DNA of 64,000 nucleotides from NCBI RefSeq assembly GCF_044324785.1, contig NZ_CP172128.1; one strand, written 5' to 3'. A program made the position numbers. The stretch is from Escherichia coli (GTDB lineage: Bacteria > Pseudomonadota > Gammaproteobacteria > Enterobacterales > Enterobacteriaceae). Of the stretch, positions 45,201 through 51,200 are shown one piece after another. How positions within the stretch are numbered: the first letter of the stretch is position 1; each line of letters starts with the position of its first letter.

Positions 45201-48200
45201 TCCGTTGGCATATAGGAAAGATGTAAACGCCCGGCTGACTGTGAGAGGACTGCCCGCCAGGCAGTCTGGGCCTCTGTGAGACGAAGGGCATCAGCGAAGG
45301 TCATATCGCGTACATGGAGTGAGACGGGCAGGGGAAGACGCACGCCGCTGTAACTGAACTGTTGTCCGCGCAGACGGGCCAGCTCGCTCAGGAGCTCCAG
45401 AGCATCGCCTTCCCAGTCAAAGGAAACCCGCCCGCTGTGAGCCTGCAGGCTGCCTCCGGGCTGGCGGGAAGGCAGGGCTGCAGAATACGTGCCCTGCTCC
45501 CACAACTGATACTGTGCATGTCGTGTGACAGCGACTTCAGAAGCTGCACCGTACTGCCTGGCCGGTGCGGTATTATCCGGGGGAAGATGACAGCCGCTCA
45601 GACAGAGAATGGCAACTCCCCCTGCAAGGGTGATACGTTTTTTTTGCATGGTTTTATCCGGAAAATAATGAACAGGACTGGCGGTGAGTGGCCAGAAGAG
45701 CGGAAACGAGCAGATTCAGGTCAGAAGCCCCGGGCGTCCCGGGGCGTGATAATCAGAAGGTGAACTGTAACTGAGCAATGGCACCGTAGTTGTTGTCGGT
45801 GCCCACGAGGCCGGCGACATCAATGTGAATCACATCAAACGGTGAGAGCCCAATCCCGGCAGTGAATGCACTGCCGTTGTTGCTGGCCAGATTCTGGCGG
45901 TAACCGGTACGTAACTGTGCCCATTTCCAGGCATTAAACTCAGCACCAACGGCGGCAAACTGACGTTTGCTGTCTGATGTGAAGCCGCTGGCCGGGGTCA
46001 GATCCACATCCAGTGCCGTGGTGAACATGTCGTTGTGCCATGATACGCCGGTCGTTACCTGCGGACGGATCCTGAAGGTCTCGCTGACACCATTCACTTC
46101 TTTGGTTTCAATACTGCGGGGGAGCAGGTTCTGTGCGACCAGTCCCAGCGTCCAGTTGTCATCCAGGTCCATGCTGGCGCCGATGTCGGCGTTGATGCCA
46201 TTTTTCGTGTTGTGGTAGCGGTCACCTTTGAATGCGCTGCTGTCATAATTTTTGACCAGCACGTTGTAGTTGAACAGGTCAACACGCTGGAATTTTGGTG
46301 TGAAGCCCAGTGACCATTTTTGTCCGGCGGTCTCCAGTTCGGTGGCCAGCGCAATGCCCACATCAGTGACCAGTGCGGCACGGGCAAATGCCTGAGAGGT
46401 CAGTCGGTTTTTGTCCACATTCTGACCGTTGCTGTTTGCAATGCTTTCCAGATAGTTCAGGTCTGCATCACTGACCTTACCGTCAACGCTGACAGTACCG
46501 AAGGTTTTTAGCATCAGGGCTGCAGAGAGAGTATCACCGGGAAGGGCTGCCACAGCGGAAGCGCCCACCTGTGCGTCAGCATGCGTGTGACGGAAGTCCT
46601 GAAGTTGCGCCTTCAGACGCGCAGCGGTCTGCGGTACGCCGCTCTGTGCGTCGACGGCACGCTCAAAGGCTTTCCAGTCATCACTGATTTTATCGGCGTT
46701 GTCGGTGATATTACCCGGGTCGGACAATTGTGCCCCGACGGACGGAAGAAGAAGACTGAAGTCATCTTTTGCACCGGATTTTGTCAGCAGTGCCGGGTTT
46801 GCCAGTGGGGCCACACCATAGTGAGAGGAGGCAACCCCCGTTCCTCCCATCGCATCATTGCGGGCTTCAAAATATGACGTTGCTGCAGTCGAATTAAAGG
46901 AAAATAAAACGGCAGACGCGATGAGAGTACGGGTAATATGCTTTTTCATCATCATTTCAGTTTCCTGTATTGAGGTATTTTGGGTATAACAACAGAGGGC
47001 ACGGCTGTTCCATTAAAAACAGTTGGTGTATTATTCCGGTTTATTGCTCAGTATTATTACCAGGGGGATAACGGAACCCTGAATAACGCAGTGGGTAATA
47101 TTTTTCCTGTTATCAGATATTCTGCCTGTGCCGGAGTGAGTGTTACGGCGCGAACAGGGATATCCGGAGATATTTTTCGGGCCATCTGAAACCAGCCTTC
47201 TTTTTCTATATCCATTCTGACCGGATATAACGAAAGTACCGGATAAATAATGGTGTTATTAATTTCTTTTTTCTGCCTGAGCAGAACGCCGCAATATTCT
47301 CCGGAATGCGTTCCGGCAAACGGAAAACCATGCCAGAGAATAATGTCCATATTCTCGCGGGCTGAAATAATCCTGCAGAATATCTCCTGTGTGGCTGGCC
47401 AGTCTCCCGGACGATATAGTGGATAATGCACCCTGCCGTTCAGCCATTCCGGACTGAGATAAAACCAGTCAGCCAGTGCTGCAAGAATCTCCCCGGTCAG
47501 ATAGTCAGTGAGTCTGTCCGGCTCCCGGAAGACGGCAGGGCGGATATTCCAGGGGGCCAGTAATGCAGCCATCGTTGTTGCGCTGATATCATGTGCCTGC
47601 ATGATGTGCTCCATCCTGCTGAGAAGACGGCGGACGATGTTATCTGCAGGAAGAAACATTTCACTTAACGCGTCTTCGACCAGGATACGCGTCAGGTCAG
47701 AGACGGAAAGAGAAAGCTGTTCGCTCATGATACCAAGGGCATCCCTGACTCCCTGCGGATAACGAACCTGCAGGGGTGTGGACTGCAACTGGCGGTTATT
47801 GAGCAGAGCTTCGCTAATCCGGGCCCTGTCAATGGAGAGCATCATGCGGGCAGCAATGCCTGTGCTGTTGGGTTTCATTTCACCTCCGTGCGGTTCATAT
47901 GTTAAGTCTAAAGAGCGTGTTTACTGAACGGAAACGAGTTATTTCGATCGTTATGATCGAGTGTGTTTCAAGAGTGCTTTTAACTCTGTTTTAAGCGTGA
48001 ATGAAAAGGATTCGGACAGGACGCGATTTAGTATGCCGCTGGTCTGGCATTATGCTGCAGAGCAGACGGAGTCAGGAGATTGAAAGTATTTCGTTATATA
48101 ATCTTTTCCTTTTCGGGATGAAATCAACGAGGTTCGTATGAAAATTAAACAGCATAAAGAAAAACTGGAGATTATAAGGGATATTATTCGAGAGACGCTG

Positions 48201-51200
48201 TTGGGTAATGCTGCTCTTATTGTTCTGGCAGCCATGGTTCCGGTTGTACTGGTGAAACCATGGGATTCGATGACATTTATTTTTATGGGGGCCGTGTGTG
48301 TTTCTTTTGCAGTCATTCTGTTTTGGCTGGTTTATATAGTTTGTTTGTATATAGGAACGCTTGTAAAGAATATTTTTATAAGGATTTTTGCTTTTTCTAT
48401 TTGGGCCCTTTCTGCTGAGGGGGCAATTATTTATAACATGATAAAGATATTATCATAGAAAAGCTGTTTATATATTGGCTCTATGTAAAAAGAATGGTAC
48501 CACTGCCAGAGTCCCCGTCGTTATTTTTATGCGTTGGGGCCATGAATGTTTATTTGGCATCCCTTATCTCGCCCATCAGCAGGCGGATATGCAGCCAGGT
48601 GTCATGATCCAGAACAGGTGATGGTGTTACCATGCAAGCACAGTGCCCGATGGCGAGCGTATCAAGGAAGCGTTTTGCATCGTTGGCACTTTCATATTCA
48701 CCAGTATGGATCAACATCCACCTTTGCCCCAACGCTGATTCGGTGTGAATTGGTTGCGAGAATGCGATTGTGTAAACGTCTTCAATTGTAACGATACGAT
48801 TATTATCCGCAGTGGCTGCATGGGAGGATAAGTGTTTCATAAAGGGTCTCATAGCGTTAATTTTGATCAAAAATTATTTGTTCAGGAGGAGGATATGAAA
48901 ATACTGTTCGCTTTTGTCATGAACTGGCTGTTTGTTAACGGACAAATCATGACCCGTTCATCAATGTTTGCGGGTAGCTCGCCTGGTGTGGGGACGCGTT
49001 CACCCCGCTGAGCAGCCTGGGCCAGTGCGCGCAGCAACAATACGCTGGCGTGAGATATTGCCAGTTCCCGGGTTTCAGCACGGCTTTCAAGGTCGAAATC
49101 GTGCAGTGTCACAATGAACACTCCGTTTCTGTTTCTGACAGTTGCAGGGTAGGGAACAAAATAAGGGGAAATTTTGCTGGTCTGTTTACGCCTTGCATCG
49201 AGTTTACTGACCAGGTGATATGCCCGGAGGTGTGTGTACCGTTTCAACATGTTCAGTGAGCGGTGACCGGAAATGGCTGCAATCTCCATAACGTTCAGTG
49301 TGCCGAGCTCGAACAGACGGCTGATGGCCTCATGGCGTAGATCGTGAAAATGCAGATTTTCTATTTTCAGATCCAGAAGAGCGGTACGCCAGGCGCTTTT
49401 GAAACCGGACGAGGTGTAATTGAACACATTGCCGTTTATCTGTTGTGGCAGAATTTGCAGGTAGTTACGTGCTTTCCGGGAGAGTGGTACGTCGCGTGGT
49501 GAGCCATTTTTCGTTTCAGGAAGATGCGCCACGCCGTGCTGCAAATCGATGTGTTCCCAGCGTAATGAGAGAATTTCTCCCTGGCGCATTGCTGTTTCCA
49601 GAGCCAGATGGAAGATAACGTAGAGCTGCGGATTTTTGTCCCTGAAATAGCGGGAAAGGCGGCGTTCTTCACCAGAAGTCAGTCGGCGGTCGCGGCCATT
49701 ACTGATTTTCGGTTTTCGGACCAGTTCAACAGGATTCATACGGCATGTTCCCCATTCCACACGGGCGATATTGAATAATGATGATAAAAGGGCAAGTTCA
49801 AGACGGACGGTATTTCCGGTGATTTGACGCCCTGTTCGTGGGTTAATTTGAGCTAAACGCTGATCCCGGTAACCGGCGATATCAATGGTAGTGATTTCAT
49901 CCATATAGCGCTCGGCCATAGGGTGACGTTTAATCACATTGACGCGATAAAACTCCTGCAGATGACCTTTTTTATGGACGGAAACGGTTTTCAAGTATTT
50001 GTCCAGCGCCCGGTTGAGAGTCATTTTGCGAATTTTGATTTTTCGAAACATATCTGCCTTCCACGATAAAAACAGGGAAGGTAGGAATAGTGAAACGGAA
50101 ATGCAATATCGCCGTGCCAATCCGGTTCGTGGAAAAATGCAGGAAAAGGCGATATTGAAATCGTCAAAGTAACAGCATCAAAACTCCGCTGGCCTGGTGC
50201 TACTGCCACCTGCCCAATGGGTAAGAAGGTGATCGGGGGTGGTGCAGAATGCAGCTCTGGAATTGGCTTTATCTGGCTTGTCCGTTCAATACCTGTAAAC
50301 AATAATGCCTGGTATGGCTTTTGCGATACGACAGAACACATCATTGGAAAAATAACTGTACATGCCATTTGCCAATGACAAAGTGATTTACTGGCAAACC
50401 ACAATGTAACTACATTTCCCCGTCAGATCGTTCCTGTTTGTACCGCCGTGAAAATTGTATTCATCGTAGTAACCACACTTCACAATCCTGTTCGAATCAT
50501 ATGTCGCAACAGAACCTGCGAAGTAATTTGGCTTCCAGCCATGCGGGTTTTCAGCATTGCTGACGCTCCAGGTACACTGGCTGGCAGAAAAACCAGACGG
50601 CAAAGGTAGTCGTTCTCCATTTGCGATTTTTCCTGTCAGAACAGTGCTACCTGATACCCTAATCCACGAACCGGATTGGCACGGAGGCCAGTGCCAATCC
50701 GGTTCGTGGAAGGGTAACAAAGAAAAGGAACATTTCACTGTTTACGGAACGAGTGGATGTGGACATACAGTGTCCTATGCAGTGTGTCCGAGTGGTAGTA
50801 CTTTGGTTTCAGGCGGATATCAATTAACCGCCTGGTCGCAGGACAACCGTAACCCGTTCAACTCACCGGACTCAACTTATCCCGACTGGGCGAACAATCG
50901 CTGGATTGTTGGTGGAACAGGGACCATCACAAGCTGTTTTCGCTCTGTAGCGTTATGCGCCAGATGATTTCTGGCACATTGTTTCAACTTCATTACGGTT
51001 TAGTTGAATGCGGTGCTACATCTGATATGCATAAACCGAGAACACCCCTGAGCCACAAGAGTAGTTTTGGGCCGGATAAGAGGTGATCTGATAAGTTGCG
51101 CCAGCAGGGACAGCAAAAGAGATGAATGCTGTCTTCCCATAAGATGGGTTATTACTCGCATTTGTGCTAATCAATGCCCCTGCAACGTATCCCTGCAATC

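What the first reader, a model, noticed from the sequence alone, without database searches (positions are those of the whole stretch)
47057..48870. Three-gene block of unknown function between the transfer genes and rci
A 273-aa protein and a 106-aa protein on the minus strand flank an AT-rich 106-aa polytopic membrane protein on the plus strand, with about 250 bp of AT-rich promoter-like DNA in front of it. The opposite-strand small membrane protein wedged between backbone operons looks like cargo, perhaps an immunity, holin-like or toxin protein.
Basis: inference. Interest (0 to 1): 0.4.

Follow-up and report, generated by a model that had tools for sequence, protein, structure and literature searches.

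The report
ArtA-like antisense membrane gene beside traE
The three ORFs are not one unit: they are the backbone gene traE, a relative of the F-plasmid membrane gene artA (function still unknown) sitting backwards among the transfer genes, and a small ORF that may not encode a protein.

Summary
The three ORFs exist exactly as described, in an IncK2/Z (IncI-complex) plasmid 100% identical to E. coli p135-2. They are not one block.

1. **273-aa ORF (traE).** This is TraE, a backbone gene found in all IncI-complex plasmids. Its relative in pESBL is dispensable for transfer. My model gives it an XRE-like helix-turn-helix domain, so it may be a regulator.

2. **Plus-strand 106-aa ORF (artA homologue).** This is a homologue of F-plasmid ArtA, the "anti-tra strand" ORF between trbA and traQ.
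   - The family is tiny: 42 clusters among 1.84 billion representatives.
   - It has no Pfam or NCBIfam model and was not found in phages.
   - It shares an N-terminal motif (LEIIRxIIRE[TS]LLGNAA) followed by three hydrophobic segments, and is always AT-rich.
   - In 11 of 12 site types it lies antisense to its neighbours, including F-type, VirB-type and I-type transfer clusters.
   - It is accessory here: absent from IncI1, replaced by a lipoprotein gene in one relative, and deleted in an IncB/O relative.

3. **Minus-strand 96/106-aa ORF.** Its coding status is doubtful: dN/dS is about 1, substitutions show no codon-position bias, and the model has pLDDT 39.

ArtA's function remains unknown. 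Some PGAP records call it a "toxin", but I found no primary evidence. This is a new member of a known but uncharacterised family.

The parts
47057..47878 (-). traE: conserved IncI-complex backbone gene, 273 aa. Good Shine-Dalgarno (GGAGGTGAA before the ATG). Modelled XRE-like helix-turn-helix domain at about residues 78-147, followed by a C-terminal alpha/beta domain.
47879..48036 (.). Conserved traE upstream region, shared by IncK2/Z, IncB/O and partly IncI-gamma. It is backbone DNA, not part of the cargo.
   Evidence: Alignments A1 and A2; identical between L002 and L010.
47944..47960 (.). Inverted repeat TCGATCGTTATGATCGA in the traE upstream region. It is invariant in all relatives aligned and is a candidate operator (inference).
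   Evidence: Invariant columns in A1 and A2. The hairpin folds with z-score -2.67. It was flagged as a stem by the scan.
48080..48540 (+). Variable cassette 1, carrying the artA homologue. Here the window and the IncK2/Z relative L005 diverge completely. L005 has a 181-aa lipoprotein-like gene on the other strand instead.
   Evidence: Alignment A1, annotation of L005, translation showing a LLSGC lipobox. No flanking repeats or IS ends were found.
48097..48102 (+). Perfect TATAAT hexamer 35 nt upstream of the artA-like start codon. No usable -35: the TTGAAA at 48080-48085 is only 11 nt away.
   Evidence: Read directly from the sequence. The consensus scan does not report a promoter here.
48129..48132 (+). 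GAGG Shine-Dalgarno, 5 nt before the ATG at 48138.
   Evidence: Read directly from the sequence.
48138..48458 (+). artA homologue: 106-aa inner-membrane protein. It has a charged N-terminal helix (KEKLEIIRDIIRETLLGNAA) and three hydrophobic segments, with conserved W63, Y71, W89 and an acidic residue (E93) in the third segment.
   Evidence: UniRef names this exact sequence 'ArtA'. BLASTP to F-type ArtA: 35% identity, E 2e-13. BLASTP to a VirB-type plasmid ORF: 34% identity, E 2e-16. Family alignments. dN/dS 0.34 against subfamily B. GC 0.36 against 0.50 in flanks.
48550..48840 (-). Orf96 (106 aa if started at the TTG at 48870): a conserved open frame directly downstream of rci. Its coding status is doubtful.
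   Evidence: PGAP hypothetical protein. Only 14 clusters, all E. coli. dN/dS 0.83-1.16. Substitutions fall 20/23/20 across codon positions. The frame stays open by chance with P 0.14-0.17. AlphaFold2 pLDDT 39. No family or PDB hit.
48882..48915 (-). Last codons of rci. They belong to variable cassette 2 (with Orf96) and give Rci a 15-residue longer C-terminus: 389 aa here against 374 aa in relatives without Orf96.
   Evidence: Alignment A1. Rci lengths in L001/L005/L006 against L002/L010.

Best explanation
The region is a mosaic of backbone and two small accessory cassettes, not a three-gene unit.

**traE (shown).** traE is the first gene of the conserved rci-traE-traF... string of IncI-complex plasmids. 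By inference from the model, it encodes a DNA-binding protein with an XRE-like helix-turn-helix. A plausible target is the invariant inverted repeat in front of its own gene.

**The plus-strand gene (shown).**
- It is a member of the ArtA family, whose founder is the "anti-tra strand" ORF artA between trbA and traQ of plasmid F.
- It is an accessory, AT-rich cassette sitting head-on against the transcription direction of rci and traE.
- It is under purifying selection.
- It is dispensable for the plasmid, because relatives lack it, replace it or have deleted it.

**How ArtA probably works (inferred).**
- ArtA is an N-in/C-out three-helix inner-membrane protein made from its own weak sigma-70 promoter.
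- No terminator separates it from rci/orf96 on either strand. Read-through transcription of the transfer genes should therefore collide with, and be antisense to, the artA transcript. ArtA would then be made mainly when the transfer genes are quiet.
- The most conserved part, the cytoplasmic N-terminal helix, is the likely contact surface for a partner common to hosts carrying F-, I- and VirB-type systems.
- I think ArtA is most likely a non-essential protective or modulating membrane factor of the plasmid-bearing cell (exclusion- or immunity-like), not a part of the DNA-transfer machine.

**Orf96.** This is most likely a non-functional or fast-diverging open frame that came in with a piece of DNA that also rewrote the Rci C-terminus.

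**Confidence.** About 0.9 for the identities (TraE, ArtA family, accessory status). About 0.25 for the inverse-coupling and protective-factor mechanism. The 0.6 given below is a blend of the two.
For: **Identity of the plasmid and annotation.** 100% match to NZ_CP080262.1, typed IncK2/Z and MPF_I.

**ArtA homology.**
- UniRef names the exact sequence ArtA.
- tblastn finds 175 plasmids, including F-type artA loci.
- Pairwise E-values are 2e-13 and 2e-16.
- The motif is shared across 19 diverged members.
- A profile search finds only 42 clusters.

**Antisense placement.** I examined 12 site types.
- F trbA/traQ site: L011, L012, L015, L017/18, L023, L024, L026.
- A second F-type site next to traV: L014.
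- VirB4/VirB5 site: L013.
- IncI traE/rci site: the window and L006-L010.
- A non-tra NfeD/flotillin context: L021/22.
- L016, of unknown context.

**Composition and selection.** ArtA genes are AT-rich in all 12 contexts. dN/dS is 0.34.

**Accessory status.** The IncB/O "empty site" is an L010-type arrangement with artA and most of its partner ORF deleted between short imperfect repeats.

**No terminator.** There is no minus-strand terminator-like site in 46900-49000, and no stable hairpin between artA and orf96 (z about 0 on both strands).

**TraE.** See, plus PMC4288162.

**Orf96.**
Against: - **No expression data.** The promoter has a perfect -10 but no -35, and the scan found none.
- **Orientation rule has an exception.** In L019/L025 an ArtA homologue is co-oriented with its neighbours in the rep/par region of a non-mobilizable plasmid. 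Only about 4-5 of the site types are clearly independent insertions, so the orientation bias is suggestive (about 0.5^4), not proven.
- **Usual partner is missing.** In 8 of the 11 contexts examined for one, artA abuts or overlaps a convergent small polytopic membrane ORF in the TrbA position. The window lacks such a partner, so the window gene may work differently or be a remnant of a two-gene module.
- **Function is unknown even in F.** From memory, not verifiable here: Kathir & Ippen-Ihler 1991 found no transfer phenotype for artA insertions.
Confidence: 0.6

Rival explanations
1. ArtA is a membrane toxin of an addiction or abortive module. Its antidote is either the convergent TrbA-like membrane protein or the antisense transfer-operon RNA. 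The window carries a stand-alone toxin gene kept silent by antisense transcription.
For: - PGAP names some homologues 'toxin ArtA'.
- The protein is small, hydrophobic and AT-rich, and apparently has its own promoter.
- Frameshifted or truncated alleles recur: P0028 on 26 contigs, the L012 internal deletion, and P0003, P0005, P0009 and P0098-P0100.
- A convergent, abutting or overlapping small membrane ORF is present in 8 of 11 contexts examined.
Against: - No paper in the searchable library supports toxicity.
- Other PGAP records call the same protein 'protein ArtA' or 'hypothetical', so the label may be a naming artefact.
- The window-type gene has no partner ORF, yet it is intact and at least 99% identical in 125 of 175 plasmids.
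- At 106 aa with three membrane segments it is unlike classical type I toxins.
- There is no Rfam antisense RNA and no PADLOC hit.
Confidence: 0.15
2. ArtA is an exclusion or immunity protein. It would be an inner-membrane factor that protects plasmid-bearing cells against incoming DNA from related transfer systems, pilus-specific phages, or a membrane-acting bacteriocin.
For: - Its size, three-helix topology, AT-richness and hypervariable membrane part with a conserved cytoplasmic helix resemble entry-exclusion and pore-forming-colicin immunity proteins. This is a resemblance from general knowledge, not a test.
- It occurs only on plasmids, and on plasmids with three different pilus/T4SS types.
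- It is retained on a non-mobilizable plasmid, which fits a protective rather than a transfer role.
Against: - No sequence similarity to any Pfam colicin-immunity, holin or exclusion family, for any of the 19 members scanned.
- No colicin or lysis ORF is evident in the six-frame ORF listing of 44-52 kb; only seven of those ORFs were scanned against Pfam.
- IncI-complex plasmids already carry exc genes elsewhere (general knowledge).
- No experimental phenotype is known.
Confidence: 0.2
3. The ORF is incidental. The real element would be AT-rich regulatory DNA, such as a convergent promoter or an H-NS nucleation site that damps read-through from rci into traE. The open frame would be a by-product.
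For: - AT-rich islands inside otherwise GC-richer operons occur in all 12 contexts.
- The placement is antisense.
- No function is known for the protein.
Against: - dN/dS is 0.34 between subfamilies.
- Full-length protein alignments hold down to 21-30% identity, with a conserved motif and conserved W/Y/E positions while the DNA is unalignable.
- There is a good Shine-Dalgarno.
Confidence: 0.05

Closest known systems
ArtA of plasmid F (anti-tra-strand ORF between trbA and traQ; Wu & Ippen-Ihler 1989 and Kathir & Ippen-Ihler 1991, cited from memory and from reference lists seen)
   Same: - Homologous over the full length: 35% identity, E 2e-13.
- Same size: 104 against 106 aa.
- Same N-terminal motif and three hydrophobic segments.
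- Encoded against the direction of the surrounding transfer genes.
- AT-rich relative to the flanks.
- Function unknown.
   Different: - It sits in an I-type (Dot/Icm-like) transfer region between traE and rci, not in an F-type operon.
- It has no convergent TrbA-like membrane ORF next to it.
- The membrane part is diverged: 35% overall identity, with the N-terminal 27 residues far better conserved.
ArtA subfamily B at the same traE-rci site in other IncI-complex plasmids (P0020/L010; frameshifted 71-aa 'toxin ArtA' P0028 in L006-L009)
   Same: - Same insertion site and orientation.
- The upstream DNA and the first ~27 codons are nearly identical.
- 48% protein identity overall.
   Different: - Subfamily B overlaps a convergent 93-aa hydrophobic ORF by 8 nt.
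- The window instead has 91 bp of spacer and then the soluble-looking Orf96.
- The 3' two-thirds of the gene has been swapped.
TraE of IncI1 plasmids R64/pESBL
   Same: - 54% identity over the full length, with the same rci-traE-traF synteny.
- No Pfam domain.
- The pESBL homologue is not required for transfer (PMC4288162 Table 2).
   Different: - In IncI1 traE follows rci directly with a 150-bp gap. Here two cassettes are interposed.
- The downstream traG (histidine-phosphatase family) of IncI1 is absent from the window.
XRE/cro-C1 family helix-turn-helix repressors (e.g. 434 repressor, C.AhdI, ImmR)
   Same: - Its last helix motif, LADWFYLSPEWLNG, aligns in register with ALGVSVDWLLNG of 434 repressor.
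   Different: - No Pfam HTH_3 or HTH_31 hit at E 0.1 or better.
- Foldseek against the PDB finds nothing significant.
- The domain is flanked by a low-confidence N-terminal region and a C-terminal alpha/beta domain of about 110 residues with no known relative.

Membership tests
ArtA family (F-plasmid anti-tra ORF) | Sequence homology to F-type ArtA over most of the length | tested here: met
   BLASTP 35% identity over 91 residues, E 2e-13. tblastn E 3e-5 in a 7.3-Gb database. The profile search retrieves the F-type, VirB-type and window types together. UniRef names this exact protein ArtA.
ArtA family (F-plasmid anti-tra ORF) | About 100-115 aa, with a conserved charged N-terminal helix (LEIIRxIIRE[TS]LLGNAA) followed by three hydrophobic segments | tested here: met
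   Alignments A3 and A7; hydropathy scan.
ArtA family (F-plasmid anti-tra ORF) | Encoded on the strand opposite to the surrounding transfer genes | tested here: met
   The window gene is on the plus strand while traJ-traE, rci and pilV are all on the minus strand. The same holds in 11 of 12 site types. The exception is L019/L025.
ArtA family (F-plasmid anti-tra ORF) | Own promoter and independent expression | tested here: inconclusive
   There is a perfect TATAAT at 48097-48102 and a GAGG Shine-Dalgarno. There is no -35, and the consensus scan finds no promoter. No transcript data are available.
ArtA family (F-plasmid anti-tra ORF) | Convergent, abutting small polytopic membrane ORF (TrbA position) | tested here: not met
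   Present in 8 of 11 contexts examined. In the window the next ORF is 91 bp away and not hydrophobic. This is a frequent companion, not a proven defining feature.
ArtA family (F-plasmid anti-tra ORF) | Dispensable for conjugation | not testable with these tools
   Indirect evidence only: relatives without the gene are typed conjugative, and an IncB/O relative has deleted it.
IncI-type TraE | Homology and rci-traE-traF synteny | tested here: met
   41-92% identity to proteins named TraE. Synteny is seen in L001-L005 and L010.
XRE-family helix-turn-helix regulators (for TraE) | Match to an HTH_3/HTH_31 sequence profile | tested here: not met
   No Pfam or NCBIfam hit at E 0.1 to 1.
XRE-family helix-turn-helix regulators (for TraE) | Five-helix cro/C1 fold | tested here: inconclusive
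   [not shown]
Type I toxin-antitoxin toxins | Very small (usually under 60 aa) single-helix toxin with a cis-encoded antisense sRNA | tested here: not met
   The protein is 106 aa with three hydrophobic segments. No Rfam family lies in 46900-49100.
Pore-forming colicin immunity proteins / holins | Profile match to a known immunity or holin family, and adjacency to a colicin or endolysin gene | tested here: not met
   No Pfam, PHROG or PADLOC match. The neighbours are traE and rci. No phage homologue was found.

The most novel reading that the evidence does not exclude
ArtA proteins are a dedicated class of "antisense-embedded" plasmid membrane genes. They would have been captured independently inside F-type, VirB-type and I-type transfer operons, always head-on. 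Their synthesis would then be switched off by transfer-operon transcription and on when transfer genes are silent. Together with a convergent TrbA-like membrane partner, they would form a state-dependent toxin/immunity or exclusion switch that reports or enforces the transfer-off state of the plasmid.
Probability: 0.12. Interest if true: 0.6.

Novelty: new member of a known kind. Interest (0 to 1): 0.3.

Why it matters
artA has been an orphan of the F transfer region since 1989: it is conserved, has no phenotype, and has no assigned role.

This analysis shows that the same family also sits in IncK/B/O/Z plasmids and in a VirB-type plasmid. It is nearly always antisense to its neighbours, always AT-rich, and often paired with a convergent small membrane ORF. 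That gives a comparative handle and a set of natural variants for asking what ArtA does:
- stand-alone (this window);
- paired with a partner ORF;
- frameshifted;
- deleted.

Practically, the result corrects the annotation of this region:
- the plus-strand "hypothetical protein" is ArtA-family;
- TraE may be a regulator rather than a structural transfer protein;
- Orf96 should not be trusted as a gene.

The impact is modest unless a function emerges.

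Tried and rejected
**Family and structure searches that found nothing**
- Pfam, NCBIfam, PADLOC and PHROGs gave no meaningful hit for any of the three proteins. The weak hits were DUF818 at E 0.08 and phrog_13717 at E 0.078.
- Pfam on 19 ArtA members at E up to 10 gave only scattered single hits.
- PDB sequence profile searches for all three families were empty.
- The AlphaFold2 model of Orf96 was unusable at pLDDT 39, so no fold search was run on it.
- The afdb50 fold library was unavailable.
- Foldseek of TraE against the PDB gave nothing significant.

**Ideas tested and dropped**
- F TrbA and the 93-aa partner ORF of L010 are not detectably homologous (E 0.36). A single conserved "trbA-artA module" is therefore not shown by sequence.
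- Repeat search around the cassette found no IS ends or target-site duplications.
- Rfam found no RNA family.
- No terminator or stable hairpin lies between artA and orf96.
- ArtA homologues were not found in phage genomes.

**Literature**
- Searches for a basis of the "toxin ArtA" label found nothing.
- The original artA papers and the Frost 1994 review are not held.

**A first impression that was revised**
- I first took the IncB/O "empty site" to be ancestral. It proved to be a deletion derivative.

Full report
**Observation**

The window stretch 46900-49000 is 100% identical to E. coli plasmid p135-2 (NZ_CP080262.1), typed IncK2/Z with an I-type mating-pair system.

PGAP annotates the same three genes there: "conjugal transfer protein TraE" and two hypothetical proteins. 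It starts the third at the ATG at 48840, giving 96 aa. The neighbours are rci (48882-50051, -), the shufflon and pilV on one side, and traF, a DotD/TraH lipoprotein, TraI and TraJ on the other.

The plus-strand ORF is AT-rich (0.36 GC against 0.50 in its flanks) and has three hydrophobic segments. The description is confirmed.

**The block is a mosaic, not a unit**

Comparison with relatives shows how the region varies.
- IncI1/I-gamma plasmids have rci followed directly by traE, with a 150-bp gap.
- An IncB/O plasmid (L002) also has rci then traE, with no small ORFs.
- An IncK2/Z plasmid from Escherichia sp. PS15001 (L005) keeps a 93-aa homologue of the minus-strand small ORF. In place of the plus-strand membrane gene it has a 181-aa lipoprotein-like gene on the other strand.
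- Another plasmid has lost rci and the shufflon altogether.

The 160 bp immediately upstream of traE (47879-48036) is conserved in all of these. It includes an invariant inverted repeat, TCGATCGTTATGATCGA, at 47944-47960. Most of the "AT-rich promoter-like DNA" is therefore the traE control region.

The window and L005 diverge at about 48080 and rejoin at about 48540, which I call cassette 1 (the membrane gene). A second cassette runs from about 48541 to 48915. It carries the small minus-strand ORF and also replaces the last codons of rci, so Rci is 389 aa here against 374 aa in plasmids without it.

The IncB/O "empty site" is not ancestral. It is an L010-type arrangement from which the membrane gene and most of a neighbouring ORF were deleted between short imperfect repeats. 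No IS ends or target duplications flank the cassettes.

**The 273-aa protein is TraE**

Its homologues (41-92% identity) come only from E. coli and Salmonella IncI-complex plasmids and are named TraE. The gene is under purifying selection, with dN/dS 0.17-0.30.

In the transposon-sequencing study of the IncI1 plasmid pESBL, TraE, TraF, TraG and Rci were all classed as not required for transfer. The essential cluster is described there as running from traH to trbC (PMC4288162).

I take this as moderate evidence that TraE contains an XRE-like DNA-binding domain. The conserved inverted repeat in front of its gene is a candidate operator, but this is inference.

**The plus-strand protein is an ArtA homologue**

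A word-indexed search found only close E. coli relatives, a 48%-identical subfamily B, and a 71-aa frameshifted form that PGAP calls "toxin ArtA". UniRef names the exact window sequence "ArtA".

tblastn against 72,556 plasmids found 175 records. Among them:
- F-type plasmids, where the hit is the annotated artA gene lying on the opposite strand between trbA and traQ;
- a VirB-type mobilizable plasmid, where an unannotated 107-aa ORF lies on the opposite strand between virB4 and a virB5-like gene.

Pairwise BLASTP gives E 2e-13 and 2e-16. All share K-x-KLEIIRxIIRE[TS]LLGNAA at the N-terminus, a near-invariant Trp in the second hydrophobic segment, a Y-x-x-E-L motif, and W...E in the third.

A profile search of 1.84 billion cluster representatives finds only 42 clusters. 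None of 19 diverged members hits a Pfam family. There is no PDB relative and no phage copy. F-type ArtA is in 1,298 plasmids and is variously labelled "protein ArtA", "toxin ArtA" or "hypothetical". dN/dS between the window type and subfamily B is 0.34, so the protein is under selection.

**Context rules for the ArtA family**

I looked at 12 site types.

| Site | Loci | Orientation |
|---|---|---|
| F-type trbA/traQ site | L011, L012, L015, L017/18, L023, L024, L026 | antisense |
| F-type site beside traV | L014 | antisense |
| VirB4/VirB5 site | L013 | antisense |
| IncI-complex traE/rci site | window, L006-L010 | antisense |
| Non-transfer NfeD/flotillin context | L021/22 | antisense |
| Unidentified short contig | L016 | antisense |
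| rep/par region of a small non-mobilizable plasmid | L019/L025 | co-oriented |

In every case artA is markedly more AT-rich than its flanks.

In 8 of the 11 contexts examined for one, a small polytopic membrane ORF (85-136 aa, the position of F TrbA) converges on artA, either abutting it or overlapping it by a few bases. These partners are not detectably homologous to each other by BLASTP. Fernandez-Lopez et al. note that trbA, trbG and artA co-occur in F-like plasmids (PMC5102898).

The window gene has no such partner. After its stop come 91 bp and then the non-hydrophobic Orf96.

Only four or five of the antisense sites are clearly independent insertions, so the orientation bias is suggestive rather than proven.

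**Likely mechanism**

The following points are shown:
- ArtA-family membership;
- accessory status;
- purifying selection;
- head-on placement;
- no terminator-like structure on either strand between artA and the rci/orf96 side;
- a perfect -10 hexamer and a good ribosome-binding site, but no -35.

The following points are inferred.
- The protein is a three-helix N-in/C-out inner-membrane protein, by the positive-inside distribution of charges.
- It is produced from its own promoter mainly when read-through from rci toward traE is low.
- Its conserved cytoplasmic helix contacts a partner common to hosts of F-, I- and VirB-type plasmids.
- It serves the plasmid-bearing cell as a non-essential protective or modulating factor rather than as part of the transfer machine.

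I give this mechanism about 0.25.

Rivals:
- a membrane toxin with a protein or RNA antidote (0.15);
- an exclusion or immunity protein, which overlaps my preferred reading (0.2);
- an incidental ORF in regulatory AT-rich DNA (0.05, contradicted by dN/dS and by deep protein conservation).

I could find no primary evidence for the PGAP word "toxin". The founding papers are not in the library. From memory, they reported an anti-tra ORF with its own promoter and no transfer phenotype on insertion.

**The minus-strand small ORF (Orf96)**

Homologues form only 14 clusters, all from E. coli, at 56-95% identity and with a mosaic of two allelic forms. Against two relatives:
- dN/dS is 0.83-1.16;
- substitutions fall evenly on the three codon positions, 20/23/20;
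- simulation shows the frame would stay open by chance in 14-17% of cases.

The ribosome-binding site is weak, the AlphaFold2 model is unstructured (pLDDT 39), and nothing matches it in any library. Either it is not a protein-coding gene, or it is a protein under unusually relaxed or diversifying selection. I would not build on it.

**Comparison, novelty and verdict**

The closest known entity is F-plasmid ArtA, and the defining sequence, architecture and orientation features are met. The frequent TrbA-like companion is missing. The gene is already labelled ArtA in UniRef, so this is a new member of a known but functionally uncharacterised family, placed in a different type of transfer region.

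The "three-gene block" framing and the specific holin or immunity guesses are not supported.

Interest is modest at 0.3. The antisense-embedded pattern across three transfer-system types is a tidy observation and gives natural variants for experiments, but nothing here reveals a new kind of system.

Noticed in passing
window 45649-45753 (between traF and the DotD/TraH gene): The window has only about 100 bp here. IncI1/I-gamma plasmids carry traG at this position, a histidine-phosphatase-family gene annotated in pESBL as LPS core heptose(II)-phosphate phosphatase. The IncK2/Z backbone therefore lacks traG.
   Followed up: partly
window 48882-48915 (3' end of rci): Rci is 389 aa here against 374 aa in relatives lacking Orf96. 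The last 15 codons come from the variable cassette. I did not examine whether the altered tail affects shufflon recombination.
   Followed up: partly
window 47944-47960: A perfectly conserved inverted repeat, TCGATCGTTATGATCGA, lies upstream of traE in IncK2/Z, IncB/O and I-gamma relatives. It is a candidate operator, possibly for TraE itself.
   Followed up: partly
L006-L009 (e.g. L008, contig of 539 kb; L007 next to urease genes): Truncated pil-rci-artA-traE-traF segments, with no traH-traJ beyond traF, sit on very long contigs next to a type III restriction-modification methyltransferase or urease genes. This suggests chromosomally integrated remnants of an IncI-complex plasmid. These remnants carry the frameshifted 71-aa 'toxin ArtA'.
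   Followed up: no
L005 2718-3263 (-): A 181-aa lipoprotein-like protein (MKKQPLLWMTIAAALLSGC...) occupies the same slot as artA in another IncK2/Z plasmid. It has no NCBIfam hit. The traE-rci junction is a small cargo hotspot.
   Followed up: partly
L003 (CP056607.1): An IncK2/Z plasmid in which rci and the whole shufflon are deleted, so pilV is followed directly by traE. It is still typed conjugative.
   Followed up: no
L017/L018 5990-6615 and L023 6035-6629: In some F-type clusters a PIN-domain toxin-antitoxin pair is inserted on the anti-tra strand close to artA. The traF-traQ interval is therefore also a hotspot for antisense cargo.
   Followed up: no
L019 4213-4701 / L025 3204-3692: In the one co-oriented, non-transfer context, the ArtA homologue is preceded by a 162-aa four-helix membrane protein. 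This is possibly a different kind of membrane partner.
   Followed up: no
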